Below, one piece after another: positions 43,698 through 62,140 of a DNA stretch of 64,000 bases. Position 1 is the first letter of the stretch. Each line of letters opens with the position of its first letter. The notes beneath the pieces were generated by a model. That model did not search any database. It saw nothing but the letters and a program-made list of their open reading frames with translations, and was not told the DNA's origin. The stretch lies in IMG/VR virus record IMGVR_UViG_3300037467_002824, positions 1 through 64,000 of that record. One strand, given 5' to 3'. Both the position numbers and the translations under genes were made by a program. Source of the stretch: a virus.

Positions 43698-45173
43698 CTA
43701 TGCGCTGCGGGCGAAGTCGTAGTGCTGACGGTCGACGCGGAGGTAGGACTTCAGGAAGGGGCAGTCATCCAGGACTTCGTCGGCGAGTTCCTGAGCGATC
43801 TTGCGGTAGGAGGGGTGGCCCTCCTTCTTCGAGCGCAGCTCGATGATGTGGAACAATTCCCGAAGGTTGGCCCGCAGGACGTACCGCACGTTGTAGGCGA
43901 GCGGGACGACGTACTGGGCTTCCCACGGCGAGACGTTCGCTAGGGCGGTCCAGACCGGCCGAACGGCTTCGAGCGCTTCCTGCATCTCGGCGTAGAGCCC
44001 GAGTTCATTGAGGAACGGGTCGATCGCGTAGTCCTCGTTGCAGGTGAGGAGCGGGTTCGTCTGGCTGACCATGCGATGGCGCTGAAGATCTCGCCACGCG
44101 CCGTAGTCACAGACGATCTCGAACTTCCAGGAGAGGTCCTCGAACGGCCGACCCGGGAGTTCGAACGGACCACGATCCTTGAGATACGCATCCAGAATCG
44201 GGCGAGCGTCCTTTTCGAGAGAGGTGCGGAACCTCGCCTCGGCGTGCTCCAACTCCGGACGCGCCTCCAGAAGGATCATGGACGCCAGCTTCCATAGGGC
44301 GTTCTGCGGGGCCTCCAGCTTCCTCACAGCGCGCCGCGCCTGGTTGATCGAGGGTTCGGGCCATCGGTCTTTGTCGATCGCCCGGATGAGCCCCAGGGTG
44401 GCCGGGAAGGACCGAGACGGCTCGACGTACTTGAGGAGGGTCGGCATCTCCGTCCGAGTCTCCTCCGCCATCGTGGCGCCGAGGACGCGTACCTCGTTCA
44501 GCGGGTGCCCGAGCATCTTCGAAAAGTGATGCTCGGCCCCTGTCCCGTTAAGGGTGACACCCAGGTTCGTAAGTGTCCCTGCGGGAAGGACACCGCGCAC
44601 CAGATCGAAAGCCTTCGTCTGGCACTGCTTGTCAGTCGCCGCCGGCTTGAGCTTCTTGAGCACCTTGGCCGCCTTCTTGGTGAGGGCGGAGTACGTCTTC
44701 AAGAGCTGGGTGGCGGCCTGCCGGTACTGTTCGAGCAACGCCGGCGGCAGGTTCGGGCTTCGAAAGAAGCTGTCGTCCTTGAATTCTACGTACCGCGTCG
44801 ACTTCTCGGTGTAGCTGCCCAGGCGCGAGTCTTCGATCGCCTTCGCTGCAAGGATCGAGCAATTCTCCACCGCCAGACGAACTTTGGCGTGTTCCGCGAC
44901 ACTCTTGTGGCCATAGCCGACCACGTACTTTTCATGGAACGCGCGAGCTTTGTCGCGCGCCAGCTGGAGATCTCCTCCATCAAAAGATCCCACGTGCACA
45001 GGGCGCAGAACCGCAAGATCTTGATCGGCCAGGAGCTTTTCGAGGTTCGTGCGGAGGTCATAGGGCGACCTGCTGTAGTAGGCGAACAGGACTGCTGCGA
45101 CTTCTTCAGGAAGATTACGCAACACGAAGACGTCCTGATCGAGATTCGAGACGAAAGGCTGAACCGGGTTCAT
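43698..45173 (-). CDS. thyX: FAD-dependent thymidylate synthase ThyX, tandem-domain form
   Basis: 491 aa from ATG 45173 (MNPVQPF; ATGA overlap). N-half: GHKSVAEH and SYTEKSTRY, but DSR in place of RHR. C-half: DLQRHRMVSQ and ANLRELFHIIELRS..HPSYRKIA (ThyX motif region). Confidence 0.75.
   Translation of the reverse strand: MNPVQPFVSNLDQDVFVLRNLPEEVAAVLFAYYSRSPYDLRTNLEKLLADQDLAVLRPVHVGSFDGGDLQLARDKARAFHEKYVVGYGHKSVAEHAKVRLAVENCSILAAKAIEDSRLGSYTEKSTRYVEFKDDSFFRSPNLPPALLEQYRQAATQLLKTYSALTKKAAKVLKKLKPAATDKQCQTKAFDLVRGVLPAGTLTNLGVTLNGTGAEHHFSKMLGHPLNEVRVLGATMAEETRTEMPTLLKYVEPSRSFPATLGLIRAIDKDRWPEPSINQARRAVRKLEAPQNALWKLASMILLEARPELEHAEARFRTSLEKDARPILDAYLKDRGPFELPGRPFEDLSWKFEIVCDYGAWRDLQRHRMVSQTNPLLTCNEDYAIDPFLNELGLYAEMQEALEAVRPVWTALANVSPWEAQYVVPLAYNVRYVLRANLRELFHIIELRSKKEGHPSYRKIAQELADEVLDDCPFLKSYLRVDRQHYDFARSA
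45160..45172. repeat. Palindrome TGAACCGGGTTCA on the HD-hydrolase/ThyX junction
   Basis: Perfect 13-nt palindrome, identical to 36393-36405. On the coding strand it reads ATGAACCCGGTTCAG, containing both the stop of the upstream gene and the start of thyX. Confidence 0.8.
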
Positions 45174-45781
45174 TCCCACGTCCTCTTGCCGTCGACCTTG
45201 CGCGAGGTCCAGCGACGCAGCTTGTGGAAGAGCATCGTGTATTCGATGAACGCCCGTTCCTGTGTCCAGCGCTCGACTCGCAGGTCGCGGATGAACTCGT
45301 CGTGGGTGCACTTCACGGAGCCGTCCGGGAAAAGCACCGGGATCTCGTTACCCCAAATGACGCGGTCGAGCCGCTTCACTTCCGGATACTCGCCCGGCAC
45401 GCTCCAGATCTGGTAGATCAGATCCTGCGTAGCTTTCTCGGCCTGTCGGTACATCTCCATCTCCGGGCGCACCTTGATCGGCTTCGGTACGTCGGGGAGA
45501 AACCCTTCGCTGCCGTCATGGAGCATCGCGCAGAACGCTTCTTCAAGAAGCCCGCAGCGCATCAGCTCGCGCGCCAGATAGACCGAGTGCTGGGCCACCG
45601 AATAGTGGAAGATCCCCTGGCCCTGGTACCGGCAGCAGTTCGACAGCCCGAGGACCATGTCCTCCAGGTGAAGGTCTTCCTTCTTCGGGGCGAAGGGATC
45701 GAACTTCGATCCCGACTGGGTGCAGATCGTGAAATGCGGATGCGTACCCGGGCTGTGCCCGGCGCCATTCGGTTCGCTCAT
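45170..45781 (-). CDS. HD-domain phosphohydrolase (YfbR-like dNMP nucleotidase family)
   Basis: 203 aa from ATG 45781 (ATGA overlap with the tdk stop). CCRYQGQGIFHYSVAQHS and AMLHDGSEGFLPDVPKP match the HD-domain His...HD...D pattern. Confidence 0.55.
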   Translation of the reverse strand: MSEPNGAGHSPGTHPHFTICTQSGSKFDPFAPKKEDLHLEDMVLGLSNCCRYQGQGIFHYSVAQHSVYLARELMRCGLLEEAFCAMLHDGSEGFLPDVPKPIKVRPEMEMYRQAEKATQDLIYQIWSVPGEYPEVKRLDRVIWGNEIPVLFPDGSVKCTHDEFIRDLRVERWTQERAFIEYTMLFHKLRRWTSRKVDGKRTWE

Positions 45782-46329
45782 GTGGCCTCGCTGAAACAGG
45801 CGCGGCAGCGCGCTTCGTACTCGTCGACGTCTCCCACGACGATCTGTGCCGTGGACATGTTCGGTTTCGGGATTCGGTAGGTTCGGTTCGCCGCCGCGCG
45901 GCGGCACTTGAAGCACACCGCGGTGAGCTTCAAGACCTCATCAGCGATCGCCATGAGCTGCGGCATCAAGCCGAAGGGGCGTCCGCGAAAGTCCATGTCG
46001 AGGCCCGCGATCACGACGGTAACGCCGCGATCGACGAGCGATTGAATTTCGGTGAGAAACGAATTCTCCTGGAAGAACTGTGCTTCGTCCACAGCCACCA
46101 AGCTCACGTCGGGCGCGACGCAGTCGGTGAGATTCGATCCGGTCGGAACCGAATGGATGACCGTTTCCGGAAGCATCGTCGCCAGCGAGCGCGACGTTCT
46201 CGTATTGGTCCGAGGTTGAAAGAGCTGCGTGTTGTATCGGCCGAAGTGCGCCCTTCGAACACGGCGCACCAACTCTTCGGTCTTGCCCGAGAACATCGGG
46301 CCCGTGATCACTTCGATTCGACCGGACAT
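45778..46329 (-). CDS. tdk: Thymidine kinase
   Basis: 183 aa. P-loop GPMFSGKTEEL, VAVDEAQFF, GLDMDFRGRPFG, and zinc-ribbon lasso CFKC..-x-..CRAC. Confidence 0.9.
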   Translation of the reverse strand: MSGRIEVITGPMFSGKTEELVRRVRRAHFGRYNTQLFQPRTNTRTSRSLATMLPETVIHSVPTGSNLTDCVAPDVSLVAVDEAQFFQENSFLTEIQSLVDRGVTVVIAGLDMDFRGRPFGLMPQLMAIADEVLKLTAVCFKCRRAAANRTYRIPKPNMSTAQIVVGDVDEYEARCRACFSEAT

Positions 46330-46472
46330 TTCTTCTTGGCTTCCTTGATCTCGAACTCAATGTTCTTGAGAGCACCTTCGAGAGCCCGGACAGCCTGGTT
46401 CAAGCAGTCCAAACGCCCGTTTTCTTTCGTCGCGGCCAGCCGCGCGGAGCGCGCGTACTTGAGCGCCTCCAT
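46308..46472 (-). CDS. Hypothetical small helical protein
   Basis: 54 aa from ATG 46472. The track start 46532 would overlap the upstream gene by 41 nt. Lys/Glu-rich. The 3' end overlaps the tdk start by 22 nt. Confidence 0.3.
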   Translation of the reverse strand: MEALKYARSARLAATKENGRLDCLNQAVRALEGALKNIEFEIKEAKKKCPVESK

Positions 46473-46491
46473 CACCAGCTTCCGCCGAAGC

Positions 46492-46812
46492 TCAGTCGGT
46501 GGCGCGGCCATACCGGGGCTCGATCTCTGCATTGGGGTCTTGGACCTTCACGTCAGCGTCCGTCATGGTCGTGACGTACTTGTAACGGCTGTCGTAGCGC
46601 TTGAGGCCAGGGGCCGGATACTGCGAACGCTGCTTGTCCAACTTCGCGAGCGCGCGGTTGTGTCGCCCCACAATCTCCGCGTGAACCGGAATGTACCGGT
46701 AGGCGAACCACACACCGAGAGAGTGGTTGTGGCGCCACTGCGCATATCGCGCGCCGAACGTGAGAAGCCATCGATAGAAGTGAAGGATGAAGGCCGGGAT
46801 GAAACGCATCAC
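46492..46812 (-). CDS. Hypothetical membrane-associated protein
   Basis: 106 aa. GTGATGA start/stop overlap. N-terminal hydrophobic helix FIPAFILHFYRWLLTF. Confidence 0.4.
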   Translation of the reverse strand: MMRFIPAFILHFYRWLLTFGARYAQWRHNHSLGVWFAYRYIPVHAEIVGRHNRALAKLDKQRSQYPAPGLKRYDSRYKYVTTMTDADVKVQDPNAEIEPRYGRATD

Positions 46813-47168
46813 TCTTCCTCCCCGCCGCCGAGGTCAACGCCCTTCTCGTCACAGAGACGAAGGCAGAAGTCGATCTTCGCCTGCTGCGCCTTCTTGGCGT
46901 CGTTGTACGGGCCCATCAGGTCCTGGACGATGGCCTTCGCTCCATTGAGCTTGTCGTCGGCCTCCATCTCTTCCTTGATGCGCTTGATGTTGTTGTTCGA
47001 CTGGACGATCGCCTGCTTCAGCTCGTCCTCGCTCATCTTCTCCGCCTCTTCGGCGAAGCCGACCGGCAGCTTCTTCAGGACCGGGTCCTTCGCCTTGGCC
47101 TGTTCGGCCTTGCGGCGTTCCTTGGCTTCACGTTCGACGGTCTTCACTGCGCTGTGAACGATTCCCAT
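46809..47168 (-). CDS. Lys/Glu-rich coiled-coil protein
   Basis: 119 aa. KERRKAEQAKAKD..KRIKEEMEADDKL and an acidic tail GGGEEE. Confidence 0.5.
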   Translation of the reverse strand: MGIVHSAVKTVEREAKERRKAEQAKAKDPVLKKLPVGFAEEAEKMSEDELKQAIVQSNNNIKRIKEEMEADDKLNGAKAIVQDLMGPYNDAKKAQQAKIDFCLRLCDEKGVDLGGGEEE

Positions 47169-47174
47169 AGTGAC

Positions 47175-47525
47175 CTACTTGGTATTGGTGGCGGCCTTGA
47201 CGAAATTCATGACAGACTCGGTCTTGCCGAGTTGCCGGCCCATGCGTGTTACCGCTTCGGGCGCCATGTCGGTGAGATGCTTCAGCATCTCGTTTCGGGC
47301 TTCGATGATCGGGTTATAGATCTCCAATTCGAGGACTGGAGGCGTTCCGTCCTTAACCCGGTTCAGGCGTACCCCGATCGTACGCGGAAGCGAGTAGAAC
47401 TTCAACACGGTCTCCAGCGCAGCCTGGGCTTCTTCGGCCGTGGGCTTCTTGCCAGCGAAACGCTGGTTCATGGCGCGAGTCAGGTCGTGCTTGACCTTGC
47501 GGACTTCGGCGCGGCGGTTTTTCAT
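47175..47525 (-). CDS. Hypothetical protein
   Basis: 116 aa from ATG 47525 (ATGA overlap with the upstream stop). Basic N-terminus. Confidence 0.45.
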   Translation of the reverse strand: MKNRRAEVRKVKHDLTRAMNQRFAGKKPTAEEAQAALETVLKFYSLPRTIGVRLNRVKDGTPPVLELEIYNPIIEARNEMLKHLTDMAPEAVTRMGRQLGKTESVMNFVKAATNTK

Positions 47526-47761
47526 CGGCCTTCCAACGTGTAACCGACCCGCTGGGCCTTGCGGTCGAAACGGACCTCGGCGACTCGCCACGCCGAGTCT
47601 TTGGCGAGGTCGTTGACGGCCTTCATCGCCCCTCTCAATTCCGCTTCAGCGAGCCAGCAGACTTCGATGTCGTCCCAATGGTCCGATACGGCGTCGACCG
47701 TGCGGCGGACGGCGTTGTCCATTGCTTCTCGAATATCGTTCTCATGGATAGATGCGCACAT
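47522..47761 (-). CDS. Hypothetical small protein
   Basis: 79 aa from ATG 47761. The longer track start 47839 would overlap the upstream gene by 59 nt. Confidence 0.4.
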   Translation of the reverse strand: MCASIHENDIREAMDNAVRRTVDAVSDHWDDIEVCWLAEAELRGAMKAVNDLAKDSAWRVAEVRFDRKAQRVGYTLEGR

Positions 47762-47780
47762 CGCATCTAGCCTTCTACGC

Positions 47781-48026
47781 TTACGCGTAGCCTTGTGGCA
47801 AGTGCCTCTTGAGCAGTTTCTCGGCGAGAACGCGGTCAAGCGGACCGACCCCGAGCGTCTTCTCGTCGTGGTCGAGGTCGACGTAGAAAGCTTCCTTGAC
47901 GAGCGGGCCGAACTGTGCCTCCAACTCCATCCAGATGGCGACTTCCATCACGGATGGCGGCAGTTCCAATTCCAGCACGGGCTCGATCACCCGCGTGAGG
48001 ATCTCCTCCGCCTGTTCGTCAGTCAT
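47781..48026 (-). CDS. Hypothetical small acidic protein
   Basis: 81 aa from ATG 48026, 1 nt after the upstream stop. Confidence 0.4.
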   Translation of the reverse strand: MTDEQAEEILTRVIEPVLELELPPSVMEVAIWMELEAQFGPLVKEAFYVDLDHDEKTLGVGPLDRVLAEKLLKRHLPQGYA

Positions 48027-48027
48027 A

Positions 48028-48387
48028 CTACAAGGGTACGATTCCGCGCCCCTTGCACGTCTCACAGACGTAGGTATCCGTGTCGAGACCGTTGGACTCT
48101 CGGTACATACCCCGTCCTTTACAGGTTTTACAGGGTCGCCCAAGCGAATCAATCAACTGATCAGCAAGGCGCGGATCGTTGACCGTAAACTCCACGGTCA
48201 ACCGCCCGTCATCGCCCACGTGCTGAACCTTCAGCTCGAAAGACGGTTTCCGCCGGCGGTCGAAAAGCTCACCGAGCACCTTGGTGAGATGCTCGGTGAG
48301 TTCCTTCTGGTTGAGAGCCTTGCCCTCGAACTGCTCCAGGCTCTTGCGTACGTAGTCGGCAACCTCGGACTGGGACCGCGGTTTCAT
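48028..48387 (-). CDS. Protein with DnaJ-type CxxCxGxG zinc finger
   Basis: 119 aa from ATG 48387 (GGAGGGTGG RBS). C-terminal CKTCKGRG-x15-CETCKGRG. Confidence 0.55.
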   Translation of the reverse strand: MKPRSQSEVADYVRKSLEQFEGKALNQKELTEHLTKVLGELFDRRRKPSFELKVQHVGDDGRLTVEFTVNDPRLADQLIDSLGRPCKTCKGRGMYRESNGLDTDTYVCETCKGRGIVPL

Positions 48388-49973: not shown

Positions 49974-49975
49974 GT

Positions 49976-50332
49976 TCAATTCCCCGAGCAAGAGTTGCAG
50001 ATCGCGTAGCCGTCAGGCGTCCACTTCGAAGCCTTCCGGGTGCACTTCCATACATCACAGATTCGCCCTTCGTTCAAGAGGGGCTGGTCCTGTGGAAGCA
50101 TCTTCGTGGAGTAGTTGAGGGCCGCCGCGTGGTCCTTGCAAAGCCAGCCGTACCGGCGCATCTCACCTTCGGCCGTCGTCCCCCGGCACCGGTGTGTAGC
50201 GGGCTTGCAGCAGGGATGCTTCTGGGGCGCCTGCCCCACGTAGTAGCCGCATCGCCCTGGGATGTCGCGCCAGGGCCGGGCCGTTGACTTGAAGCGGGGC
50301 GGGGGAATGTGGCTAGCGCGTTTGTCACTCAT
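49976..50332 (-). CDS. Cys-rich basic protein
   Basis: 118 aa with 11 Cys (CGYY, CCKPATHRC, CKDH, CDVWKC, CNSC). The palindrome GAACCCGGTTA lies 12 nt upstream of the ATG. Confidence 0.5.
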   Translation of the reverse strand: MSDKRASHIPPPRFKSTARPWRDIPGRCGYYVGQAPQKHPCCKPATHRCRGTTAEGEMRRYGWLCKDHAAALNYSTKMLPQDQPLLNEGRICDVWKCTRKASKWTPDGYAICNSCSGN

Positions 50333-50344
50333 GGGGAAAACCCG

Positions 50345-50355
50345 TAACCGGGTTC
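50345..50355. repeat. Palindrome-family site TAACCGGGTTC
   Basis: Located in the 50-nt spacer between 50383..50763 and 49976..50332, 12 nt upstream of the downstream ATG. Confidence 0.7.
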
Positions 50356-51233: not shown

Positions 51234-51235
51234 GA

Positions 51236-53396: not shown

Positions 53397-53452
53397 GCAA
53401 TATCACTACGTCAGCTGGGCCCGCATTGTAAAGAACCGAGCCTTAACCCAGT

Positions 53453-56098
53453 TCAGCGCCGCTTGAAACGCCAGGTGGCACGGTAGGCCCACGCCGCACC
53501 GTAGTCCGAGTCTTTCCAGGCGCCTACCGACCAGTGCGGTAGATGGCCAGAGAACGGTTCGATCGCGCCTCCCGCGTTGCCAGTGATCATCTCACTCAGC
53601 GTGACGAGATCCGAGAGATTGGCGTGGTAACCGGCGGTAGAAGCGAGCGCTTCCCCGATCGATCCGATCGACTCAGAGAGATTCACTACGTACCCCGCGT
53701 GGACCGCAAGCGATTCGCTCAGCGTTACCGTCTCGGCAAGCGCGACAGTCGTTCCCCACTGCGATTGCAACGCTTCAGCATTCGACACTGTCTCGGCGAG
53801 GCCTTCTGTGAAGGCTGCGCTCGATGCCATCGACTCCGAGACGTTCACCGTCTCAGCGACGTTCGAAGAAAGTCCTGCGCTGGCCGCGACAGCCTCCGAG
53901 TTGGCAACCGTCTCGTTAAGCGCAGCGGACATGCCAACACTCGTCTGAACAGCTTCACTGGTCGTAACGGTCTCGGATACCGACGCTGTCGAACCTTGGC
54001 TCACTGCAGCGCTCTCCGAGAGATTGATCGTCTCGGAAAGGCCAAGGCCAAGATCGACGCGGACTACGACAGCCTCCGTCCAAGAGACAGTCTCGGAAAG
54101 ATCGACGTTCGTTCCACCGCCATCAGTACCCACCGATTCGATGAGGGTGACCGTTTCACTGACCGCCGGGTTGTACGTGGCTTGGGCGGCAACCGCTTCT
54201 GAAGTCGTGACCGTTTCCGAGACCCCAGCTGTTGCGTCTTTCTGCGCAACCAGGGCTTCGCTTGTTGTCACCGTCTCCGAAACCGACGGGGTCGTCGCGA
54301 CCTGCGCCGATACCGCTTCCGCGTTCGTGACGGTCTCACTGACGTTGGCCGAGAAGCCCTGCGAGGCTGCGGCTGCTTCACTCAGGGTGACGGTCTCACT
54401 CACGGCGCCGGTCGTTCCACGTGACGCCGCCAACGACTCACCCACCACGCCAACGTTCTCGGATACCGCACCCGAGGTGGCCATCTGCGCAGCGACCGCT
54501 TCAGTCCACGAGACCGTCTCGGACAAGCTGACGGAGTCCGCGTCCTGCACCGCTGCGGCTTCCGAAAGAGCCACTGTCTCGTTCACCGCAGCGTTGAGCC
54601 CAGCGCTGGCCGCCACGGCTTCTGCCACCGTCACCGTCTCGGATACACCGGCGATGTTGCCCTTCGAGGCCGCCACGCTTTCGGCGTTGGTTACCGTTTC
54701 GCTGAGGCCCTCGGTCGCGGAAAGCTGCGCCGACACGGCTTCGGCGTTGGTCACCGTCTCCGAAACCGACGGCGTTGCCGCCAGCTGTGCTGAGACCGCT
54801 TCACTGTTCGAAACGGTTTCGCTGACGCCTACGGTGGCGCCGCGAGTGGCAGCAAGAGATTCAGCGAGAGAGACACTCTCACTAACCCCAGTGGTAAACC
54901 CTACGCTGGCTGCGAGCGCTTCGGCCACGCTCACGCTCTCAGTAGTCGAGACAATAGCGGCGTAGGCGGCAAGAACCGCTTCGGCGAGGGACACGCCTTC
55001 GCTCACGCCTACGGTCGCGTCTTTCTGCGCGGCCAAGGCTTCCGTCCAAGCGTCGGTCTCGCTCACGCCCACGGTAGCCGCGAGCACTGCCGAGAGCGAC
55101 TCGTTCCACGTCGTCCACGTCTCGGAAACGCCGACCGTGACTCCCCAAGCTGCCGCGAGCGATTCCCCGACCGCGCCAACGCCTTCGGTTACATCAACAG
55201 TGGTCGCTTTCGTCGCCGCAACGGCTTCGGTATTCGCAACCGTCTCACTTACGCCGACGTTCGCGGCGTAGCCCGCTGCAACCGCTTCACTGTTCGAAAC
55301 TGTTTCCGAGACGGGAACTACGTACCCAAGGAACTGCGCCAGCGATTCCGAGAGCGTGACGGTCTCTGAAACCCCTGTGGTCATTCCCTTCGAAGCCGCT
55401 ACCGACTCCGAAAGAGAAACCGTCTCAGACACATTACCGGTGTAGGCGGTGCTGCCCGCAGTAAAGGTCGGCGTCGTAATAAACGAGTTCGAACCAATCT
55501 GAATGACAACGTCACGGCTGGTATTGCCGCCCGCACCTGTGATGTTCCAGATAGGCTTGACGAACAGATATTCGTTTGTGAACGTAACGCTGCTCGGCGC
55601 GACCAAAGTACAAGTTGTGACTTGGGCAGCCGATGTCGTCAGGTTGACGACGCCTGCGTGAGAACCACTGCTACGGGTATCGATCGACGTGATGAGTGTC
55701 GGGCTCGATCCATCTGCATTTGCGCTCTTGTAGAGCCAGAATTCGAGCTGACCGTCTTGATCACTGCCGCTAGAAACCGCGATTACCGAAATGGACAGCT
55801 GCCACTGATCCGTAGTCCCATTCGCACCGAACGTTCCACTGAACGCACTTTGCGAACGAAAGCAATCGCCCGTGGTGTTGTTGGGAGCGGTTGCACTAGA
55901 CGGATAGGTTGTTGAGAAGACCGTCGCCGCCTGCTTGACGCCGAAGTCCATCAAACCGTAGTTGCTGGCCGCTGTCTTGGCGACCGTCCAACCCGTGCTC
56001 GTAGTGGCAGAACCAGGCGCAGACCCGCCGTCTTGCAACTGGCCGTGGTTGGCGCCTGTTGCGACAGAGTTCAGCAGATAGAACGTCTTGATCGCCAC
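53453..56098 (-). CDS. Repeat-fibre protein: 222-aa N-domain plus 31 x ~20-aa repeats
   Basis: 881 aa with a GTG start. Beta-rich N-domain, then 31 tandem units of consensus VSETV(T/S)x(S/A)EAVAAxxxxxxG, then a basic aromatic tail WAYRATWRFKRR. Confidence 0.65.
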   Translation of the reverse strand: MAIKTFYLLNSVATGANHGQLQDGGSAPGSATTSTGWTVAKTAASNYGLMDFGVKQAATVFSTTYPSSATAPNNTTGDCFRSQSAFSGTFGANGTTDQWQLSISVIAVSSGSDQDGQLEFWLYKSANADGSSPTLITSIDTRSSGSHAGVVNLTTSAAQVTTCTLVAPSSVTFTNEYLFVKPIWNITGAGGNTSRDVVIQIGSNSFITTPTFTAGSTAYTGNVSETVSLSESVAASKGMTTGVSETVTLSESLAQFLGYVVPVSETVSNSEAVAAGYAANVGVSETVANTEAVAATKATTVDVTEGVGAVGESLAAAWGVTVGVSETWTTWNESLSAVLAATVGVSETDAWTEALAAQKDATVGVSEGVSLAEAVLAAYAAIVSTTESVSVAEALAASVGFTTGVSESVSLAESLAATRGATVGVSETVSNSEAVSAQLAATPSVSETVTNAEAVSAQLSATEGLSETVTNAESVAASKGNIAGVSETVTVAEAVAASAGLNAAVNETVALSEAAAVQDADSVSLSETVSWTEAVAAQMATSGAVSENVGVVGESLAASRGTTGAVSETVTLSEAAAASQGFSANVSETVTNAEAVSAQVATTPSVSETVTTSEALVAQKDATAGVSETVTTSEAVAAQATYNPAVSETVTLIESVGTDGGGTNVDLSETVSWTEAVVVRVDLGLGLSETINLSESAAVSQGSTASVSETVTTSEAVQTSVGMSAALNETVANSEAVAASAGLSSNVAETVNVSESMASSAAFTEGLAETVSNAEALQSQWGTTVALAETVTLSESLAVHAGYVVNLSESIGSIGEALASTAGYHANLSDLVTLSEMITGNAGGAIEPFSGHLPHWSVGAWKDSDYGAAWAYRATWRFKRR
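53558..55432 (-). repeat. Coding tandem repeat, ~60-nt period, 31 degenerate copies
   Basis: In-frame 20-21-codon units inside 53453..56098. All six frames stay open across the region. Confidence 0.8.
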
Positions 56099-56101
56099 GA
56101 A

Positions 56102-56383: not shown

Positions 56384-56384
56384 A

Positions 56385-57068: not shown

Positions 57069-57122
57069 GTCCCCAGTATAAGGGCGAGCTAGGGTGACCT
57101 GGGGAAAAGGGCGAGCGACTGA

Positions 57123-57473: not shown

Positions 57474-57997
57474 CGGCGCACCACCTCTCGCCAGTCCTCC
57501 CAGCGGGTCAGGCGGCTTCGATCGGTGACGTGCTGGTTGTAGGGGCAGTCGAAGACGACGTGCCGCCAGTAGGGCTCCAGGACGCCCGTGATCTCGGGCT
57601 TGTCGTCGATGAGGATATCCCCCCGGACAACGGTCTTGTCGTGAGTGAAAATCGCCTTCCGCGCGATCTCCGGACCGAAGTGCCGGCGGAGCCAGGCCGT
57701 CTTCTCGGTCGTGCAGTGATCCGATGCCGCCGGCGTGGAGCAAACGAAGACCACATGGCCGTCCGCCACGATCTCCTGGATGGCCTGCTGTGCGCCCGGG
57801 ATCACGGGCAGATTCGCAAAGAGGCCCTCTTCGAACATCACCGGATCGATCAGGTGGTGATGCGATTCGGGGATGTGGTGGGACATGTTCCAGTTCTTCC
57901 ACTCGTCCAACCCCGGGAAGCCCTTGTTCTTCCAGGCCTGGCGGAAGCCTTCGACGAAGTTGGCGAGAACGCCGTCCATATCGACCAGTACGATCAT
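57470..57997 (-). CDS. 5'(3')-deoxyribonucleotidase (HAD superfamily, NT5C-like)
   Basis: 175 aa. HAD motif I VLVDMDGVLANF, motif II VFVCSTP, motif III/IV K..ILIDDKPE. Confidence 0.8.
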   Translation of the reverse strand: MIVLVDMDGVLANFVEGFRQAWKNKGFPGLDEWKNWNMSHHIPESHHHLIDPVMFEEGLFANLPVIPGAQQAIQEIVADGHVVFVCSTPAASDHCTTEKTAWLRRHFGPEIARKAIFTHDKTVVRGDILIDDKPEITGVLEPYWRHVVFDCPYNQHVTDRSRLTRWEDWREVVRR

Positions 57998-58230
57998 CGT
58001 TGACCTTTCACGATCTTCAGCGTCTCACGCGGCGCCACCACGGTGCACTTCGCCTGGATCTCCGCGATCCGGCGTTTCGGAATGTCGTAGTGCGGATAGC
58101 TGGCCCCGCTGTGAAACCAGCATCGCTTGATTCCCAAGTCATCTGCCATACGGTGGAGGTTCTCGACCGTATAGGGCACGCAGACCAGATGCCGCATGCT
58201 GTCGCAGTAGTACGTCAGGCCTTCGATCAC
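57994..58230 (-). CDS. DUF4031-like protein
   Basis: 78 aa from GTG 58230 (GTGA overlap; the track ATG 58281 would overlap the upstream gene by 55 nt). HLVCVPYTVENLHRMADDLGIKRCWFH..YPHYDIPKRR fits the DUF4031 pattern (..HL..D...ELH.FA..IG....W......HYDI). Confidence 0.5.
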   Translation of the reverse strand: MIEGLTYYCDSMRHLVCVPYTVENLHRMADDLGIKRCWFHSGASYPHYDIPKRRIAEIQAKCTVVAPRETLKIVKGQR

Positions 58231-58607
58231 AGGTAACCTCTCAGTTCGCCTGGATACTTGGCTCGGTCGAACTGTTCCCAAGCTTCTTCGACCGAGCCTC
58301 CATGCCCGTAGATGGTCAACGTGGCGGGAGAATCCTCACGAAGTGATACCGAGACTTCGACCCGGGCCCAGTAAGTCCAGCAGCCCGCAGGATCTTCAGG
58401 TGACGGGAAGATGTGAACTTTCGAAGTCACCCAGTAGTGCCACGCAGAGCACTTGATGTCCGCAATCTCCACCTTCTGAGATCGGAGGGCCCGATCCAGC
58501 TGTGCTTCGTGCAGCGCGGTCCAGAAGGGCGCCATGTCGAGGCCGGGCGAGCTGTGGATGAGCGCCGTCCAGCCCGGGACATCGATCTCTTCGTAAGAGA
58601 AGTTCAT
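58227..58607 (-). CDS. Hypothetical protein
   Basis: 126 aa from ATG 58607 (ATGA overlap). Trp-rich. No motif. Confidence 0.45.
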   Translation of the reverse strand: MNFSYEEIDVPGWTALIHSSPGLDMAPFWTALHEAQLDRALRSQKVEIADIKCSAWHYWVTSKVHIFPSPEDPAGCWTYWARVEVSVSLREDSPATLTIYGHGGSVEEAWEQFDRAKYPGELRGYL

Positions 58608-58840
58608 CCGCCACAGGCCTTGATGATCCCGAAGATCGCGGCGAGCCAAAAAACAGAGAGCGTGATGGCCATGAGCGCGTTGGCCGGACTCGACCAATGC
58701 TCTCCTTCACCGAGGTCTCTCGAAGTAAAGCTCTGGACGGGCTTCGGATGTGTCGGTTTGGGCGGAACGCTGCTGATGCGGTCGATTCGCCAATCCTGGC
58801 CGGAGCGGCGGAACTCCGCGCGACGGTGTGCTCGGTTCAT
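58604..58840 (-). CDS. Small tail-anchored membrane protein
   Basis: 78 aa. Basic N-half and C-terminal TM helix LMAITLSVFWLAAIFGIIKA. The palindrome TAACCGGGTTA lies immediately upstream. Confidence 0.45.
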   Translation of the reverse strand: MNRAHRRAEFRRSGQDWRIDRISSVPPKPTHPKPVQSFTSRDLGEGEHWSSPANALMAITLSVFWLAAIFGIIKACGG

Positions 58841-58843
58841 GGT

Positions 58844-58854
58844 TAACCCGGTTA
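58844..58854. repeat. Palindrome TAACCCGGTTA filling an intergenic spacer
   Basis: Occupies the 11-nt gap between the stop of 58852..59169 (its TAA is part of the motif) and ATG 58840. Confidence 0.8.
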
Positions 58855-59169
58855 GCGTGCCTTGCGAAAAACAGTGAGCAAGGGCGCTCCGGTATTATCG
58901 TCGAACTCCGACGTGATGGGAAGGAACGACAGGATATTCCTGTATTGCTCGGACCAGGCCACGACGCACCAGATGCCGTTCACCCGCAGGAGCCAGATCG
59001 AGCGCTCGAACGTCTGCCGCACCATGAACCGGGTGTTGGCAGAATCCGCGCGCTCGATCTGTCCGCAAAGCCAGCGGTAATCGAACAGGGTGAGGTCCAG
59101 TCCGTACCGCTCGCGGGCACGTTCACGGCAGTGGACGAAGTGGCGGTAGAACCGCTTGCCCACTCCCAT
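58852..59169 (-). CDS. Hypothetical protein
   Basis: 105 aa. Arg/Trp-rich. No motif. Confidence 0.45.
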   Translation of the reverse strand: MGVGKRFYRHFVHCRERARERYGLDLTLFDYRWLCGQIERADSANTRFMVRQTFERSIWLLRVNGIWCVVAWSEQYRNILSFLPITSEFDDNTGAPLLTVFRKAR

Positions 59170-59174
59170 GAAAA

Positions 59175-60020
59175 CTACTCGTCGGAACCGTGCGTGTCGT
59201 ACGCCGACCCCGAGTCGTCGTTGGCCTTTTTGGAGACCTTGTCCATGATGTCCTTGTCCACGATGGGCGTGTCCACCGCGTTGACGACCTGCGCTTGGGG
59301 ATCGCTGGTCGACATCGAGCTGGCCACCACGCTGCGGAGGGCTTCGTCACTCATGCCGACCGCTTGGCCCACATGACCCATGTTGCCGTAGATCCCGCGG
59401 ACGTTACGCCCGAGGTTCTTCTGCTCGCGATAGACCTGCGTTCCGACCGACGCCATGCGCACTGCGTCCATCATGCCGCCCGCGCCCTTGGTCGCGTTGT
59501 AGTTGATGGCGTTGTTCGCATCCATGCCCATCGCCTTCGCGGTGATCACGCTGTCGATGTTGGCACCGATCATCGTGAACTCGTACTGCCACTGTTCACG
59601 AGCCTTCTCGATGAGCGTACGGAGACGGTTGCCTACGTACTCCTTCGAGGCGTTCTCCTGGCCGTCAGTGATGACGGTGAAGAGCACCTTCCCGGGCTTC
59701 ATATCTTCGGGCATCGTCTTGATGCGATTGAAGACACGCAGCACGGTCATGCCGAGCGCGTCGTTGAGAGCGGTCCAGCCGCCACCGCCTTCGCGGTAGG
59801 CTTCTTCGGTGAGCGGCGGCACGTCCTTCAGGTCGACGGAGTCGTGAACGACCGCGACGCTGTTGTCGAAGAGCGTCAGCGAGAACATGCACTCGCCGTC
59901 GACCTTCTTTTGATCTTCGAGGAGCTTGTTGAATCCGCCGACGGTCTCGGCGACGAGACCCATCATCGAGCCCGAACGGTCGATGATCACATTGAACGAG
60001 GTGAGGTTGTTATTGGGCAT
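59175..60020 (-). CDS. von Willebrand factor A (vWA) domain protein
   Basis: 281 aa. MIDAS DRSGSM, WTALNDAL, VITDGQENAS. Confidence 0.8.
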   Translation of the reverse strand: MPNNNLTSFNVIIDRSGSMMGLVAETVGGFNKLLEDQKKVDGECMFSLTLFDNSVAVVHDSVDLKDVPPLTEEAYREGGGGWTALNDALGMTVLRVFNRIKTMPEDMKPGKVLFTVITDGQENASKEYVGNRLRTLIEKAREQWQYEFTMIGANIDSVITAKAMGMDANNAINYNATKGAGGMMDAVRMASVGTQVYREQKNLGRNVRGIYGNMGHVGQAVGMSDEALRSVVASSMSTSDPQAQVVNAVDTPIVDKDIMDKVSKKANDDSGSAYDTHGSDE

Positions 60021-60261
60021 CGGAAACTTCTTTCTTCTTGAGTTCGTCGAGCGGATGTTCGGTGCTCCACCAAACCATCACGCCCTCCGAGTTGGGGAAC
60101 TTCTGTTCGTGACACAGCACTGCATTCAACATGCAGCTCTCGTCCCAGCCGGGGGACGACTCCTTCGATGGTGCCTGTGTTTTCGAAGTTTTGCCACAGG
60201 CCGCACAGACCCAGATCGTACCAGGGGCACAAGGCTCACGTAGATTCGGCATGGTCCTCAC
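60010..60261 (-). CDS. Small Cys-rich protein
   Basis: 83 aa. CAPGTIWVCAACG...C..LCH. Overlaps the vWA start by 11 nt. Confidence 0.4.
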   Translation of the reverse strand: MRTMPNLREPCAPGTIWVCAACGKTSKTQAPSKESSPGWDESCMLNAVLCHEQKFPNSEGVMVWWSTEHPLDELKKKEVSDAQ

Positions 60262-60595
60262 TACGCGCAGCGAGAACAGCTTTCTGAACGGTCTCGAAGA
60301 CCATCTTGGTGAGATCCTTGCGAGAGCCGGCCGGTAGCCGCTCGCTCAGGTTCTTGGCCATGATCGTCCACTGCTTGAAGATCTCCTCGTCGGTCAGCAT
60401 GGGCGCGTCGGGCTTGGTGCCGTCCACGGCCACAGCCATCTGACTCGATCCGCCTTCCGGTGTGTCCATGATCGACCAGAGGAGGAACTTGTGGGTGCCG
60501 CCTACGTTCGGCCCCATCGCCATCACCTGCTGCTTGGTGAGACCTTCGGGATGATGATGAACTTCGTAGGTGATGTAGTAGCGAGTCTCGCTCAT
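60236..60595 (-). CDS. Hypothetical protein
   Basis: 119 aa from ATG 60595 (ATGA overlap). No motif. Confidence 0.45.
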   Translation of the reverse strand: MSETRYYITYEVHHHPEGLTKQQVMAMGPNVGGTHKFLLWSIMDTPEGGSSQMAVAVDGTKPDAPMLTDEEIFKQWTIMAKNLSERLPAGSRKDLTKMVFETVQKAVLAARSEDHAEST

Positions 60596-60828
60596 CGCTT
60601 GTCCTTCTCGGGCACATTGCCGTGCCAGCGGTTGATGGTTTCCAGCGGCCGGGCCTGCTCCGCCGGGCACTGCGACTTGTCGGGATCGTTGTGGCCCGTG
60701 AAGTTGATCTTCTTCGCGACCCGCTCTTCCTGCTTCTCCGGATAGTGGTCGCAGTATTCGCATTCACCCGGCGCGTGAAGAACCTTGCTGTCACAGTGGG
60801 GATAGGGTGCTTTGTACTTCTCGCTCAT
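60592..60828 (-). CDS. Small Cys/His-rich protein
   Basis: 78 aa. HCDSKVLHAPGECEYCDH. Confidence 0.45.
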   Translation of the reverse strand: MSEKYKAPYPHCDSKVLHAPGECEYCDHYPEKQEERVAKKINFTGHNDPDKSQCPAEQARPLETINRWHGNVPEKDKR

Positions 60829-60998
60829 GTCGAGGCTGGTGCTTTCTCCTCCGTAGGAGGCAGGGTGTCGCGTTCTTGGATTCGATTGCCGAGGCGATCG
60901 TATCGATCTCGTGAGTCGAACGGTTCGAGGATTACTCGGTACTGGGCGGTTTCAAGTCGCTTCTTCCAGACCTCGGCTTGTAAGAGTTCGGTGAACAT
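60825..60998 (-). CDS. Hypothetical small protein
   Basis: 57 aa. Strong AAGGAGGAG RBS just upstream of ATG 60998. ATGA-type overlap downstream. Confidence 0.45.
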   Translation of the reverse strand: MFTELLQAEVWKKRLETAQYRVILEPFDSRDRYDRLGNRIQERDTLPPTEEKAPAST

Positions 60999-61185
60999 GG
61001 CTCCTCCTTGAATGCTTGATCTTCGAAGTGCTGACTGTGGGCAAGCATCCGATCGCACATGTAGAGCAAGGGTTCGGCCAGTTGATTCAGAGCCCACCCG
61101 AGGATGCGTAGAACACCCCCGAGCAAGAGGATGGGCGTCGCCATGAACATCAGCGCGGACGAGGCGAGCGCGTACTTGAGTCGGT

Positions 61186-61695
61186 TCATTTCTTTTCGTC
61201 TCCAAAGAGACGGAGGTCCAGCTCTTCACCCGTGTCTACTTCGTCCGGACCAAAGTTCGGATCTTCGAGGGCGGCCCGCACGAGCGGGTCTTCGCCCCAG
61301 CAGATCTGGCAGCCATGACAGCCGGGGTGACCGAAGTGATCGCCGTAGGTACGATTCGGTTGAGGAATGGTCATCACCAGCGAGATGCGTTCGTGGCGGG
61401 TGCCGCTCGCTGGAATCAACACGTCAACTGCGATGCCCTCCTCGACGAGGTAGGGATCGCGCGTCAGCACCACCGGTTGCGGCACCGTACCGATTGCCGG
61501 ATCGAAGCAATCGGCGTAGGTGCCCTTACGCGTCATCGGATGACGTGTCTTTCCCTGCTTGGTGCAGCACGCTTTGAATTCGAGGATCTTCTCACCGAGG
61601 TGGCAACGGCAGGTGCACGTCCAGTAGAACGGTACCGTGCCTTCCGGCGGCGCGTTGGGATCACGATCCTTGTGACGAGGCTTTCCTTTGCCCAT
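61186..61695 (-). CDS. Cys/His-rich protein
   Basis: 169 aa from ATG 61695, 1 nt after the upstream stop. WTCTCRCH, KACC, HPGCHGCQIC. Confidence 0.5.
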   Translation of the reverse strand: MGKGKPRHKDRDPNAPPEGTVPFYWTCTCRCHLGEKILEFKACCTKQGKTRHPMTRKGTYADCFDPAIGTVPQPVVLTRDPYLVEEGIAVDVLIPASGTRHERISLVMTIPQPNRTYGDHFGHPGCHGCQICWGEDPLVRAALEDPNFGPDEVDTGEELDLRLFGDEKK

Positions 61696-61696
61696 G

Positions 61697-62125
61697 TCAC
61701 TTCTCCACTCGGATGAGTCGTCCATAGATCTGACGAGCGGTGACCCATCCGTTGATGTGGCCTTTGTTGTTGGAGATCTGGAACTGGTCGCCCTGCGTGG
61801 CCGAAACGAGATGGAGGAACTGCCTTCCGTGGACCGTGCAGAGCACGATGTCATCCACTTCCGGCAGCTCTCCCTCGCTGAATGGAGCCACTGTACAGAG
61901 CTGTCCAGACTTGATGCGCGGAACCATGGAGTTGCCGTGGGGACGGAACGACACGGGCCTTCCAGCGCGGAGTTCTTCGATGTATCGGGATGCCCAGCCC
62001 ATGTCTTCGTTCCTCGGTTCTTGGCCTTTCGACCCCTCAAAGAAACCGAGCCCGCCACATTCCGGGCAGGCCCAATCTCCTTGGTCGTCAGCTAGGCCCG
62101 ATCCGTTACAACATTCACAGATCAT
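61697..62125 (-). CDS. S24/S26 (LexA/signal-peptidase-like) domain protein with N-terminal zinc finger
   Basis: 142 aa. N-terminal CECCNGSG-x9-CPECGGLG. Peptidase-like core HGNSMVPRIKSGQL..VDDIVL..ISNNKGHINGWV..IYGRLIRV (Ser and Lys candidates). Confidence 0.6.
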   Translation of the reverse strand: MICECCNGSGLADDQGDWACPECGGLGFFEGSKGQEPRNEDMGWASRYIEELRAGRPVSFRPHGNSMVPRIKSGQLCTVAPFSEGELPEVDDIVLCTVHGRQFLHLVSATQGDQFQISNNKGHINGWVTARQIYGRLIRVEK

Positions 62126-62129
62126 GTCG

Positions 62130-62140
62130 TAACCGGGTTA
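62130..62140. repeat. Palindrome TAACCGGGTTA filling an intergenic spacer
   Basis: On the coding strand it reads TAACCCGGTTAcgacATG. The TAA is the stop of 62138..62767 and the ATG starts 61697..62125. Confidence 0.8.

What the first reader, a model, noticed from the sequence alone, without database searches (positions are those of the whole stretch)
45159..62140. Over-represented palindrome GTAACCNGGTTAC, preferentially on stop/start junctions
The core AACCNGGTT occurs at least 11 times: 9699, 13111, 16379, 21317, 32525, 36395, 45162, 47355, 50346, 58845 and 62131. About one occurrence is expected for this length and base composition. It is usually extended to (G/T)TAACCNGGTTA(C/A). Near-copies lie at 23386, 26744, 34201, 40652 and 53445. 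In the minus-strand block it fills the tiny spacers between genes, and on the coding strand it reads as stop codon plus motif: TAACCCGGTTAcgacATG (62140-62123), TAACCGGGTTAaccATG (58854-58838), TGAACTGGGTTAA (53455-53443) and ATGAACCCGGTTCAG (45173-45159), where stop, start and motif coincide. An identical 13-mer, TGAACCGGGTTCA, sits in a tRNA spacer (36393). The single-nt centre excludes a hairpin loop, so a DNA site for a dimeric protein (regulator, methylase or nuclease target) or a phage-specific transcription signal is more likely than a terminator.
Basis: seen in the sequence. Interest (0 to 1): 0.7.

Follow-up and report, generated by a model that had tools for sequence, protein, structure and literature searches.

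The report
Evenly spaced palindromic protein-binding sites in phage
An uncultured ~191-kb phage carries a 15-base palindrome (core TAACCNGGTTA) about every 3 kb, inside genes and between them; it is most likely the landing site of an unidentified dimeric DNA-binding protein, and its core matches the preferred cutting site of the bacterial Gabija defence nuclease.

Summary
AACCNGGTT occurs 12 times in the window, against 0.7-1.7 expected under dinucleotide, Markov-3 and Markov-5 nulls, and it is the top palindrome of 1024 tested. Eight sites lie in genes, where a synonymous-codon shuffle expects 0.8. In 83.5 kb of this phage there are 26 sites. The symmetrised consensus is c[T/G]TAACCNGGTTA[A/C]g, with no information beyond +-7.

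Lone half-sites are not enriched and hairpin potential is nil. Sites are over-dispersed (gap CV 0.49, minimum gap 1268 bp, P~5e-5) but not periodic. The junction preference is real but partial: 11 of 26 sites touch non-coding sequence or a start/stop codon, against 9% of positions. Fifteen are intragenic.

The closest relative keeps the motif while site positions turn over; more distant relatives lose it. The best reading is a multi-copy dyad site for a phage-encoded dimeric DNA-binding protein acting genome-wide. This kind is known from the 17-bp repeats of Cluster O mycobacteriophages, RK2 KorB operators and stoperators. No binder was identified.

One new lead: the core equals the optimal recognition sequence of GajA. 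An unrelated phage carries a cousin motif, TATAAC-N2/3-GTTATA.

The parts
992..1002 (.). Weak site TAACCGGGGTA (1 mismatch), inside gene 322-2313. It is the only intragenic site in the other reading frame and may be chance.
6137..6147 (.). Site TTACCTGGTTA (1 mismatch), inside gene 5823-6434.
9698..9708 (.). Site TAACCCGGTTG inside the tail-sheath gene (R-N-P-V-V). It is created by synonymous CGT/GTT codons where relatives have CGC/GTG.
13110..13120 (.). Full site gGTAACCTGGTTAAc inside the gp5-like baseplate hub gene. It is kept in relatives L066 (exact), L067 (1 mismatch) and L069 (TAACCAGGTAA, although the peptide changes from NLVN to NQVK).
16378..16388 (.). Full site cGTAACCTGGTTAAt inside the 582-aa gene 16061-17809. 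The orthologous position in L066 has TAACTTGGTTA.
21316..21326 (.). Perfect 15-bp palindrome CGTAACCTGGTTACG inside gene 21125-21616 (-).
23374..23384 (.). Site TGACCCGGTTA (1 mismatch), 150 nt into gene 23225-26320.
26743..26753 (.). Site TAACCGGGTAA. Its 3' TAA is the stop codon of gene 26415-26753 (+).
31256..31266 (.). Site TAGCCGGGTTA (1 mismatch) inside the SNF2-type helicase gene 30414-31868 (-).
32524..32534 (.). Full site TTAACCCGGTTAC inside gene 31943-32698 (+).
34200..34210 (.). Site TAACCCGGTAA in the 51-nt spacer, 5 nt upstream of the ATG at 34216. No Shine-Dalgarno sequence is present.
36394..36404 (.). Site (T)GAACCGGGTTC(A) in the 22-nt spacer between tRNA-Arg(ccg) and tRNA-Gly(gcc).
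40651..40661 (.). Site TAACCCGGTAA. Its 3' TAA ends ORF 40404-40661 (+), which has gene-like GC1/2/3 values.
42893..42903 (.). Site TAACCAGGTTG inside gene 42498-43274 (-).
45161..45171 (.). Site GAACCGGGTTC. It overlaps the ATGA stop/start junction of gene 45170-45781 and thyX (M-N-P-V-Q).
47354..47364 (.). Site TAACCCGGTTC inside gene 47175-47525 (-).
50345..50355 (.). Site TAACCGGGTTC in the spacer, 12 nt upstream of the ATG at 50332 on the minus strand.
53443..53455 (.). Weak near-copy TGAACTGGGTTAA (2 mismatches). It overlaps the TGA stop of the 881-aa gene.
58844..58854 (.). Full site TTAACCCGGTTAG. On the minus strand its TAA is the stop of gene 58852-59169. The following ATG at 58840 is an uncertain start.
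62130..62140 (.). Full site GTAACCGGGTTAT. On the minus strand its TAA is the stop of gene 62138-62758. The ATG at 62125 is probably not a start; the gene starts at 62002.

Best explanation
The motif is a multi-copy, dyad-symmetric duplex-DNA binding site. It is 15 bp long, c[T/G]TAACC-N-GGTTA[A/C]g. It is most likely bound by a homodimeric sequence-specific protein encoded by the phage itself. Selection keeps roughly one site every 2-5 kb along the whole chromosome. The site is placed wherever it costs least. Where a spacer exists it fills the spacer, and its own TAA is often reused as a stop codon. In long genes it is written into Asn-X-Val tripeptides as xxT-AAC-CNG-GTT-Axx, using otherwise disfavoured codons. 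Because the sites are symmetric, carry no flanking signal and are not tied to promoters, the protein most likely acts genome-wide. It could be a silencer or roadblock, an insulator, or a loading or organising site, in the manner of KorB OB sites or ParB parS sites. It is unlikely to act as a gene-specific operator. What is shown: the enrichment, the dyad-only character, selection at the DNA level inside genes, the even spacing, and lineage-specific conservation with turnover of positions. What is inferred: that a protein dimer binds the site, that the phage encodes it, and what binding does.
For: Enrichment survives every null tried. In 83.5 kb there are 23 sites with at most 1 mismatch, against 0.43 expected. 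In 517 kb of unrelated viral DNA only 1 unseeded core was found. Selection acts at the DNA level. Eight of 14 N-[LPQR]-V tripeptides use AAC-CNG-GTT although GTT makes up 17% of Val codons. The sheath site is created by synonymous changes relative to L066 and L069. The gp5-like site survives a peptide change from NLVN to NQVK in L069. The dyad is what matters: lone half-sites number 38 against 36 expected. Information is confined to +-7 and the centre is free. There is no hairpin potential. Spacing is even: gap CV 0.49 and minimum gap 1268 bp across 26 sites, P about 5e-5. L066 again shows gaps of about 3 kb, although its sheath site sits at a different position. The lineage pattern is typical of binder/site co-evolution. 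L066 has 3 sites against 0.01 expected and L069 has 2 against 0.03, while L067, L074 and L005 are not enriched. A parallel case was found. An unrelated phage has 24 TATAAC-N2/3-GTTATA dyads in 29.7 kb. Its 72-75% relatives carry TGCAATCGATTGCA instead, at equivalent gene junctions. A syntenic winged-helix gene is the most diverged gene there, at 33% identity against 74% for its neighbour. Published precedent exists in the Cluster O phages, which carry more than 30 copies of a 17-bp dyad, a third of them in genes, predicted to bind a dimeric protein (PMC4351075).
Against: No binder was identified. In the 83.5 kb seen, the only DNA-binding domain detected is a sigma-70 region-4-like HTH in a 183-aa protein just outside the window. 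No ParB, KorB or MarR homologue was detected, by my own Pfam/PHROGs scans or, for window 1-20967 and both extensions, by the precomputed Pfam tables; genes 20351-26320 were only partly scanned. About 108 kb of the genome was not available. Even spacing and intragenic placement are not what classical operators show. The recognised 11 bp is contiguous, which also fits a nuclease or a methyltransferase. The function (silencing, organisation or activation) is pure inference.
Confidence: 0.55

Rival explanations
1. The motif is a target of a sequence-specific nicking or cutting enzyme of the OLD/GajA type, encoded by the phage or the host. The sites would be programmed nick or break points, for example to start recombination-dependent replication or to load clamps, as with the site-specific nicks of T5-like phages. 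Alternatively they are what a host Gabija system would cut.
For: The core TAACCNGGTTA is identical to the optimal recognition sequence of B. cereus GajA, AATAACCNGGTTATT. In that sequence the centre is free, and the CC/GG core and the T/A at +-5 are the critical positions. The enzyme nicks CC^GGG on both strands (PMC8136825). The phage logo conserves exactly those positions. The recognised bases are contiguous over 11 bp, as in nuclease sites. Even spacing would suit distributed nicks.
Against: No OLD, TOPRIM or AAA_15 protein was found in the 83.5 kb. The outer AT wings of the GajA site are replaced here by C/G and T/G. A defence nuclease target should be depleted in a phage, not enriched 25- to 50-fold. 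The in vivo relevance of the GajA motif is itself in doubt (bioRxiv 10.1101/2025.08.30.673261). Assembly breaks seen in one sample (window about 4867-4890) do not coincide with a site.
Confidence: 0.12
2. The motif is a signal for the phage's own multisubunit RNA polymerase: a promoter element, a pause or termination site, or the site of a dimeric specificity factor.
For: The phage encodes an RNA-polymerase beta'-like piece (PF04998) among the virion genes, just left of the window. In the block of small minus-strand genes, many sites sit at gene boundaries (45161, 50345, 53443, 58844, 62130, 67020, 71319). In the parallel phage lineage the dyads lie mostly at gene junctions.
Against: The site is perfectly symmetric and has no flanking information. 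Fifteen of 26 sites are inside genes, including the middle of the sheath, hub and helicase genes. There is no hairpin or T-run. A distinct -10-like motif lies 7 nt upstream of start codons. There is no fixed distance between the sites and those motifs.
Confidence: 0.12
3. The motif is the target of a phage or host DNA methyltransferase or base-hypermodification enzyme. Enrichment would arise from a linked very-short-patch-type repair bias or from epigenetic regulation.
For: The core contains CCNGG, a known methylase/restriction specificity (ScrFI/SsoII class; from general knowledge). CCNGG overall is slightly over-represented, 517 against 460. Lineage-specific switching of palindromes among relatives also occurs with restriction-modification specificities.
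Against: Restriction-modification targets are normally avoided, not enriched. An 11-15 bp specificity is atypical for methyltransferases. The excess is confined to the AA..TT-flanked form: 12 of the 400 CCNGG in the window. No methyltransferase was found in the 83.5 kb. Even spacing is unexplained.
Confidence: 0.08
4. The motif is an RNA-level element: a small hairpin, a nuclease processing site, or a stop-start translational coupling signal.
For: Several sites overlap stop codons and lie 0-12 nt from start codons that lack a Shine-Dalgarno sequence.
Against: The 15-mers fold at 0 to -4 kcal/mol. Site 35-mers (-7.3) are no more stable than random 35-mers (-7.8). Variants break complementarity (GGTAA) instead of covarying. 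Most sites are mid-gene. One lies between two tRNAs. Two of the claimed downstream starts are doubtful.
Confidence: 0.04
5. The motif is a Chi-like self-marker read by a translocating helicase-nuclease. The palindrome would provide both orientations at once.
For: The density (about 1 per 3.3 kb), the mostly intragenic location and the even coverage resemble Chi in E. coli (general knowledge). The genome is circularly permuted, so ends can lie anywhere.
Against: Chi-type signals are read as single asymmetric strands, so lone half-sites should be enriched in both orientations. They are not: 38 against 36.
Confidence: 0.03
6. The motif is a compositional or coding artefact, or the remnant of a repeated or mobile element.
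For: All intragenic sites share one reading frame, which could suggest a peptide motif.
Against: The frame is forced, because TAA is a stop in one frame and the TTA codon is never used in the other. The host proteins are unrelated to each other. The synonymous shuffle expects 0.8 sites against 8 seen. Enrichment survives a Markov-5 null. Flanks carry no information, so this is not a MITE or REP element.
Confidence: 0.01

Closest known systems
17-bp dyad repeats of Cluster O mycobacteriophages (TGTTCGGNNNCCGAACA; Cresawn et al. 2015, PMC4351075)
   Same: Both are short, invariant inverted half-sites around a free centre, with tens of copies spread through an apparently lytic phage genome. In both, sites are partly intergenic, partly near gene starts and partly mid-gene. 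There is no orientation with respect to transcription. A dimeric DNA-binding protein is predicted, and both binder and function are unknown.
   Different: The sequence and spacer differ (7+3+7 against 7+1+7). Cluster O repeats are denser at one genome end. Here the sites are significantly evenly spaced, and the majority are written into coding sequence through rare codons. The phage type differs: a ~191-kb myovirus with a virion RNA polymerase against a 70-kb siphovirus.
KorB operators (OB, TTTAGCSGCTAAA) of plasmid RK2, and ParB-parS / MatP-matS (GTGACRNYGTCAC) type chromosome sites (from general knowledge)
   Same: All are 13-bp palindromes with a single free central base. RK2 has 12 copies per about 60 kb, including sites far from promoters and inside genes. 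The sites are read by a dimer that acts at a distance or organises the whole replicon. matS differs from GTAACCNGGTTAC by one transition per half-site plus the inner base.
   Different: No ParB_N, KorB or MatP homologue was found in the 83.5 kb examined. This is a phage chromosome, not a plasmid or a bacterial Ter domain. No partition ATPase was seen.
Stoperators of Cluster A mycobacteriophages (L5 gp71 sites; from general knowledge and as described in PMC4351075)
   Same: Both involve many copies per genome (about 24-36). Sites are often in tiny spacers that overlap stop and start codons. Both represent genome-wide action of one DNA-binding protein.
   Different: Stoperators are asymmetric and oriented with transcription. 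They belong to temperate phages with an identified repressor. Here the sites are symmetric and mostly intragenic, and no repressor or integrase was seen.
Recognition sequence of the Gabija nuclease GajA (AATAACCNGGTTATT; Cheng et al. 2021, PMC8136825)
   Same: The 11-bp core TAACCNGGTTA is identical. The central base is free, and the critical positions are the same (CC/GG and the T/A at +-5).
   Different: GajA's outer wings are A/T, whereas here they are C/G and T/G. GajA is a host defence enzyme, so its target would be expected to be avoided. No OLD-family gene was seen in the phage. The in vivo role of the GajA motif is disputed.

Membership tests
Multi-copy dyad repeats of phage genomes (Cluster O type) | Short inverted half-sites around a non-conserved centre, far more copies than chance | tested here: met
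   There are 26 sites in 83.5 kb against about 0.4 expected. The logo is confined to +-7 and the centre is free.
Multi-copy dyad repeats of phage genomes (Cluster O type) | Distributed through the genome, both between and inside genes, without orientation to transcription | tested here: met
   Eleven sites are at junctions and 15 are intragenic. They occur in plus- and minus-strand gene blocks and in the tRNA array.
Multi-copy dyad repeats of phage genomes (Cluster O type) | Shared by close relatives of the phage | tested here: met
   L066 (77% sheath identity) has 3 sites in 11 kb against 0.01 expected. The motif is lost in more distant relatives.
Stoperators (Cluster A) | Asymmetric site in one orientation relative to transcription | tested here: not met
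   The site is a palindrome. The symmetrised and raw logos agree, and there is no strand bias.
Stoperators (Cluster A) | Cognate immunity repressor in a temperate phage | tested here: inconclusive
   No repressor or integrase was found in 83.5 kb. About 108 kb was not seen.
KorB OB / ParB parS sites | Palindromic loading site present in several copies on the replicon | tested here: met
   The site is a 13-15 bp palindrome with an odd centre, at about 1 per 3.3 kb.
KorB OB / ParB parS sites | ParB_N-domain (CTPase) protein encoded by the same replicon | tested here: inconclusive
   None was found in the 83.5 kb available. The rest of the genome could not be reached. The unrelated motif-bearing phage does encode a ParB_N protein, but such genes are common in phages.
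GajA (Gabija) target site | CCNGG core with T at -5 and A at +5, centre free | tested here: met
   The logo gives C/C and G/G at 0.98-1.00, T(-5)/A(+5) at 0.79, and no information at the centre (against PMC8136825).
GajA (Gabija) target site | AT-rich outer wings (AA..TT at +-6/7) | tested here: not met
   Position -7 is C 0.60 / G 0.29. Position -6 is T 0.48 / G 0.25 / A 0.19.
GajA (Gabija) target site | Actually nicked or cut by an OLD-family nuclease | not testable with these tools
   This needs in vitro digestion or mapping of read ends.
Intrinsic terminator / RNA hairpin | Stable stem-loop followed by a T-run | tested here: not met
   The 15-mers fold at 0 to -4 kcal/mol, and site 35-mers are no more stable than random ones. 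Flanks carry no information, so there is no conserved T-run.
REP / MITE-type repeated element | Conserved sequence extending beyond the core | tested here: not met
   Information content is about 0 beyond +-7.

The most novel reading that the evidence does not exclude
The dyad TAAC(C)N(G)GTTA may be a recurrent cis-element of phage chromosomes. It is seen here and, as TATAAC-N2/3-GTTATA, in an unrelated IMG/VR phage. Gabija's GajA may have evolved its otherwise unexplained sequence preference to hit exactly this element. Alternatively, these phages may carry an OLD/TOPRIM-type enzyme of the same specificity that makes programmed, evenly spaced nicks. Either way, a defence nuclease's optimal site and a phage genome-wide signal would be the same sequence.
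Probability: 0.1. Interest if true: 0.85.

Novelty: new member of a known kind. Interest (0 to 1): 0.5.

Why it matters
Multi-copy dyad motifs spread through lytic phage genomes have been described, for example in Cluster O, but none has a known binder or function. This case adds three testable features. First, there is clear DNA-level selection inside essential genes. Second, the spacing is statistically even, which points to a chromosome-wide role rather than a promoter-specific one. Third, the core is identical to the optimal GajA site. If that identity is not a coincidence, it would give Gabija a natural target and explain its sequence preference. If it is a coincidence, the phage is still a natural substrate with about 50 predicted optimal GajA sites. 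The lineage-specific motif swapping seen in a second phage group, next to a fast-diverging winged-helix gene, offers a practical route to finding the binders.

Tried and rejected
- **Phage-collection searches.** Megablast and tblastn against the GenBank phage collection found no relatives.
- **Domain scans for a binder.** Pfam and PHROGs scans of most of the proteome (concatenated early-region proteins, the ten largest structural proteins and the 26-34 kb genes) looked for ParB, HTH, OLD/TOPRIM or methyltransferase domains. They found only nucleotide-metabolism enzymes and a sigma-r4-like HTH just outside the window.
- **The S24-peptidase-like gene next to site 62130.** I considered it as a LexA-like binder and rejected it. 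Its homologues are stand-alone 100-aa proteins without a DNA-binding domain. The N-terminal zinc-ribbon extension is probably non-coding.
- **IMG/VR scan with CGTAACCNGGTTACG.** It returned 60 stretches, each with a single copy, so it gave no further motif-rich phages.
- **Metagenome scan for the rest of the genome.** It returned only two short distant contigs. The remaining ~108 kb stayed out of reach.
- **Strict periodicity of the sites.** None was found (P=0.7).
- **Chi-like half-site model.** Rejected.
- **Hairpin model.** Rejected.
- **Contig ends as evidence of physical breaks.** The one assembly break mapped did not fall at a site.
- **Proteins shared with the second motif-bearing phage.** tblastx found none in the segments available.

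Full report
**What the window is.** The window has 62% G+C and carries 29 tRNA genes at 35609-39355. It has no nucleotide or protein match in the GenBank phage collection. It encodes a tail sheath, a gp5-like baseplate hub, a head-maturation protease, an SNF2-type helicase, ThyX, thymidine kinase, dNMP kinase and a 5'-nucleotidase. The identical sheath protein lies on contigs of about 191 kb from several metagenomes. Those contigs end at different places, which indicates a circularly permuted map. Ten kb to the left lies an RNA-polymerase beta'-like piece (PF04998) among virion genes. Ten kb to the right the block of small minus-strand genes continues. That block includes a Tad2-like protein and a 183-aa protein with a sigma-70 region-4 HTH. 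This is therefore an uncultured myovirus of about 191 kb. Gene calls are my own codon-model calls, checked against pipeline calls where available.

A shuffle of synonymous codons that keeps all proteins and the codon usage gives 0.8 coding sites, and 8 are seen. Eight of the 14 N-[LPQR]-V tripeptides in the window are spelled AAC-CNG-GTT, although GTT accounts for only 17% of Val codons.

With the two 10-kb extensions the phage shows 26 sites in 83.5 kb. Of these, 23 have at most one mismatch, against 0.43 expected. In 517 kb of unrelated viral DNA only one unseeded core was found.

**Anatomy of the site.** The symmetrised logo is c[T/G]TAACC-N-GGTTA[A/C]g. C/C and G/G are essentially invariant. 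A/A and T/T stand at 0.87-0.96, and T(-5)/A(+5) at 0.79. There is weak information at +-6 and +-7, none at the centre and none beyond +-7.
- Lone half-sites are not enriched (38 against 36), so the dyad is what is selected.
- As RNA or single-stranded DNA the 15-mers fold at about 0 kcal/mol. Site 35-mers are no more stable than random ones.
- Spacer variants N1, N2, N4 and N5 do not occur at all.

**Where the sites lie.** Eleven of 26 sites touch non-coding sequence or a start/stop codon, while only 9% of positions do (P=7e-6). The motif's own TAA serves as the stop codon at 26743, 40651, 58844 and 62130, and at -1558 in the left extension.

The majority of sites are intragenic, however. They sit in the sheath, hub, helicase and other unrelated genes. 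Fourteen of the 15 intragenic sites use the frame xxT-AAC-CNG-GTT-Axx. That frame is forced, because one alternative contains a stop and the other needs TTA, a codon never used here.

Two of the cited start codons are weak. The stretch 62003-62125 has GC3 of 0.56 against 0.79 for genes. In addition, homologues and two pipelines start that gene at 62002. The ORF that would start at 58840 is not called by those pipelines.

**Spacing.** Sites avoid each other. Across 26 sites the gap CV is 0.49 and the smallest gap is 1268 bp, with P about 5e-5 for both measures against random placement. For the window alone P is about 0.0005. There is no strict period (P=0.7).

**Relatives.**
- The closest relative, L066 (77% sheath identity, 71% G+C), has 3 sites in 11 kb against 0.01 expected, again about 3 kb apart.
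- The hub-gene site is exact in L066 and has one mismatch in L067. In L069 it reads TAACCAGGTAA, even though the peptide changes from NLVN to NQVK.
- The window's sheath site is made by synonymous CGT/GTT codons where L066 and L069 have CGC/GTG. L066 has its own sheath site 426 nt away.
- More distant relatives are not enriched: L067 and L074 at 56-57% G+C, and L005 at 35%.

Density is therefore conserved, positions turn over, and the system is lineage-specific.

**A literature lead.** A full-text search for the motif found Cheng et al. 2021 (PMC8136825). In that paper the optimal recognition sequence of the Gabija nuclease GajA is AATAACCNGGTTATT. The centre is free, and CC/GG and the middle wing base are critical. 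The enzyme nicks at CC^GGG on both strands. The 11-bp core is identical to the phage motif, but the outer wings differ. No OLD/TOPRIM gene is present in the 83.5 kb. A 2025 preprint argues that a simple motif is not sufficient for Gabija targeting in vivo. I treat this identity as a lead, not as an explanation.

**A second phage.** I seeded IMG/VR with the GajA 15-mer. This turned up an unrelated contig, IMGVR_UViG_3300001605_000015, with 51% G+C and no tblastx similarity to the window phage.
- In 29.7 kb of it, TAAC-N3-GTTA occurs 12 times (0.4-0.5 expected) and TAAC-N2-GTTA occurs another 12 times. The consensus is TATAAC..GTTATA.
- Its relatives at 72-75% identity have none of these. They carry TGCAATCGATTGCA instead, with 8 copies in 12.8 kb against 0.2 expected, at equivalent gene junctions.
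- In that syntenic region a winged-helix (HTH_24/MarR_2) gene is the most diverged gene, at 33% identity against 74% for its neighbour. A ParB_N gene shows 48-54% identity.

This is the pattern expected when a DNA-binding protein and its many sites co-evolve. It also shows that such systems are common and switch specificity quickly.

**Interpretation.** The best-supported reading is a multi-copy dyad site for a homodimeric DNA-binding protein encoded by the phage, with the sites kept at roughly even intervals along the chromosome. The symmetry, the lack of flanking signal, the mid-gene locations and the even spacing argue for a genome-wide role such as silencing or roadblocking, insulation, or loading and organisation. 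They argue against classical operators, promoters or terminators. A separate -10-like motif (GCTATCAT, GCTAGTAT or GCTAGAAT), 7 nt upstream of several start codons and upstream of the tRNA array, looks like the actual promoter signal.

The published counterpart is the Cluster O 17-bp dyad repeat: more than 30 copies, a third of them in genes, with binder and function unknown. KorB OB sites, matS and stoperators are functional analogues. None of those memberships could be established, because no cognate protein was found. Nuclease-target, methylase-target and phage-RNA-polymerase-signal readings remain open at lower probability. Hairpin, Chi-like, mobile-element and compositional explanations were tested and rejected.

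**Verdict.** This is a real, strongly selected feature. It is a new member of a known but functionally unsolved kind. It adds three useful handles: even spacing, recoding of genes to carry the site, and identity with the GajA optimum.

Noticed in passing
window 17819, 23196, 26872, 28781, 35255 (+); 31882, 40605, 43689 (-): A -10-like motif (G)GCTATCAT / GCTAGTAT / GCTAGAAT ends about 7 nt upstream of ATG start codons. One copy lies upstream of the tRNA array. It looks like a promoter for leaderless or near-leaderless transcripts and is distinct from the palindrome.
   Followed up: partly
window 35609-39355: An array of 29 tRNA genes, all on the plus strand and covering most amino acids. One palindrome copy sits in the Arg/Gly spacer.
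   Followed up: partly
whole window: The palindrome CGCCGGCG occurs 35 times against 10.6 (Markov-3) or 16.6 (Markov-5) expected. It is second only to the studied motif. The cause was not examined and may be codon-related.
   Followed up: no
window 53453-56098 (-): An 881-aa protein is built largely of about 13-residue tandem repeats (..VSETVTxSEAVAAxxG..). It has no Pfam, PHROG or phage-collection match.
   Followed up: no
L072 1-1668 (window about -9678 to -8011); L070 3620-3871 and 1948-2499 (window about 69993-70244 and 71365-71916): Just outside the window lie three notable genes: an RNA-polymerase beta'-like fragment (PF04998) among virion genes, a Tad2-like (anti-Thoeris) protein, and a 183-aa Cys-rich protein with a sigma-70 region-4 HTH. 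The last is the only DNA-binding domain seen and lies next to site 71319.
   Followed up: partly
L198/L202 (IMGVR_UViG_3300001605_000015, 60448-90183) and L199-L201: An unrelated phage has 24 TATAAC-N2/3-GTTATA dyads in 29.7 kb. Its 72-75% relatives instead have TGCAATCGATTGCA at equivalent junctions. A syntenic winged-helix gene is the most diverged gene in the region, and a ParB_N gene lies two genes downstream.
   Followed up: partly
window 61697-62002 (-): A stand-alone 101-aa S24-peptidase-like protein is 60-70% identical to about 100-aa proteins in many bacterial and metagenomic contigs. That is unusually high conservation for this phage.
   Followed up: partly
whole window, gene set: The Leu codon TTA is never used (0 of about 1500 Leu codons). 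TAA is the stop codon of 15 of 90 genes, and 4 of those TAA codons belong to the palindrome.
   Followed up: yes
window 43698-45173 (-): The ThyX ORF is 491 aa, about twice the usual length. The Thy1 domain matches in two stretches. Its start codon lies inside a palindrome copy and overlaps the upstream stop (ATGA).
   Followed up: no
L197 6662 and 7699: In another IMG/VR contig two copies of a 27-bp sequence containing AATAACCSGGTTATT lie 1 kb apart in inverted orientation. They may be ends of a small mobile element.
   Followed up: no
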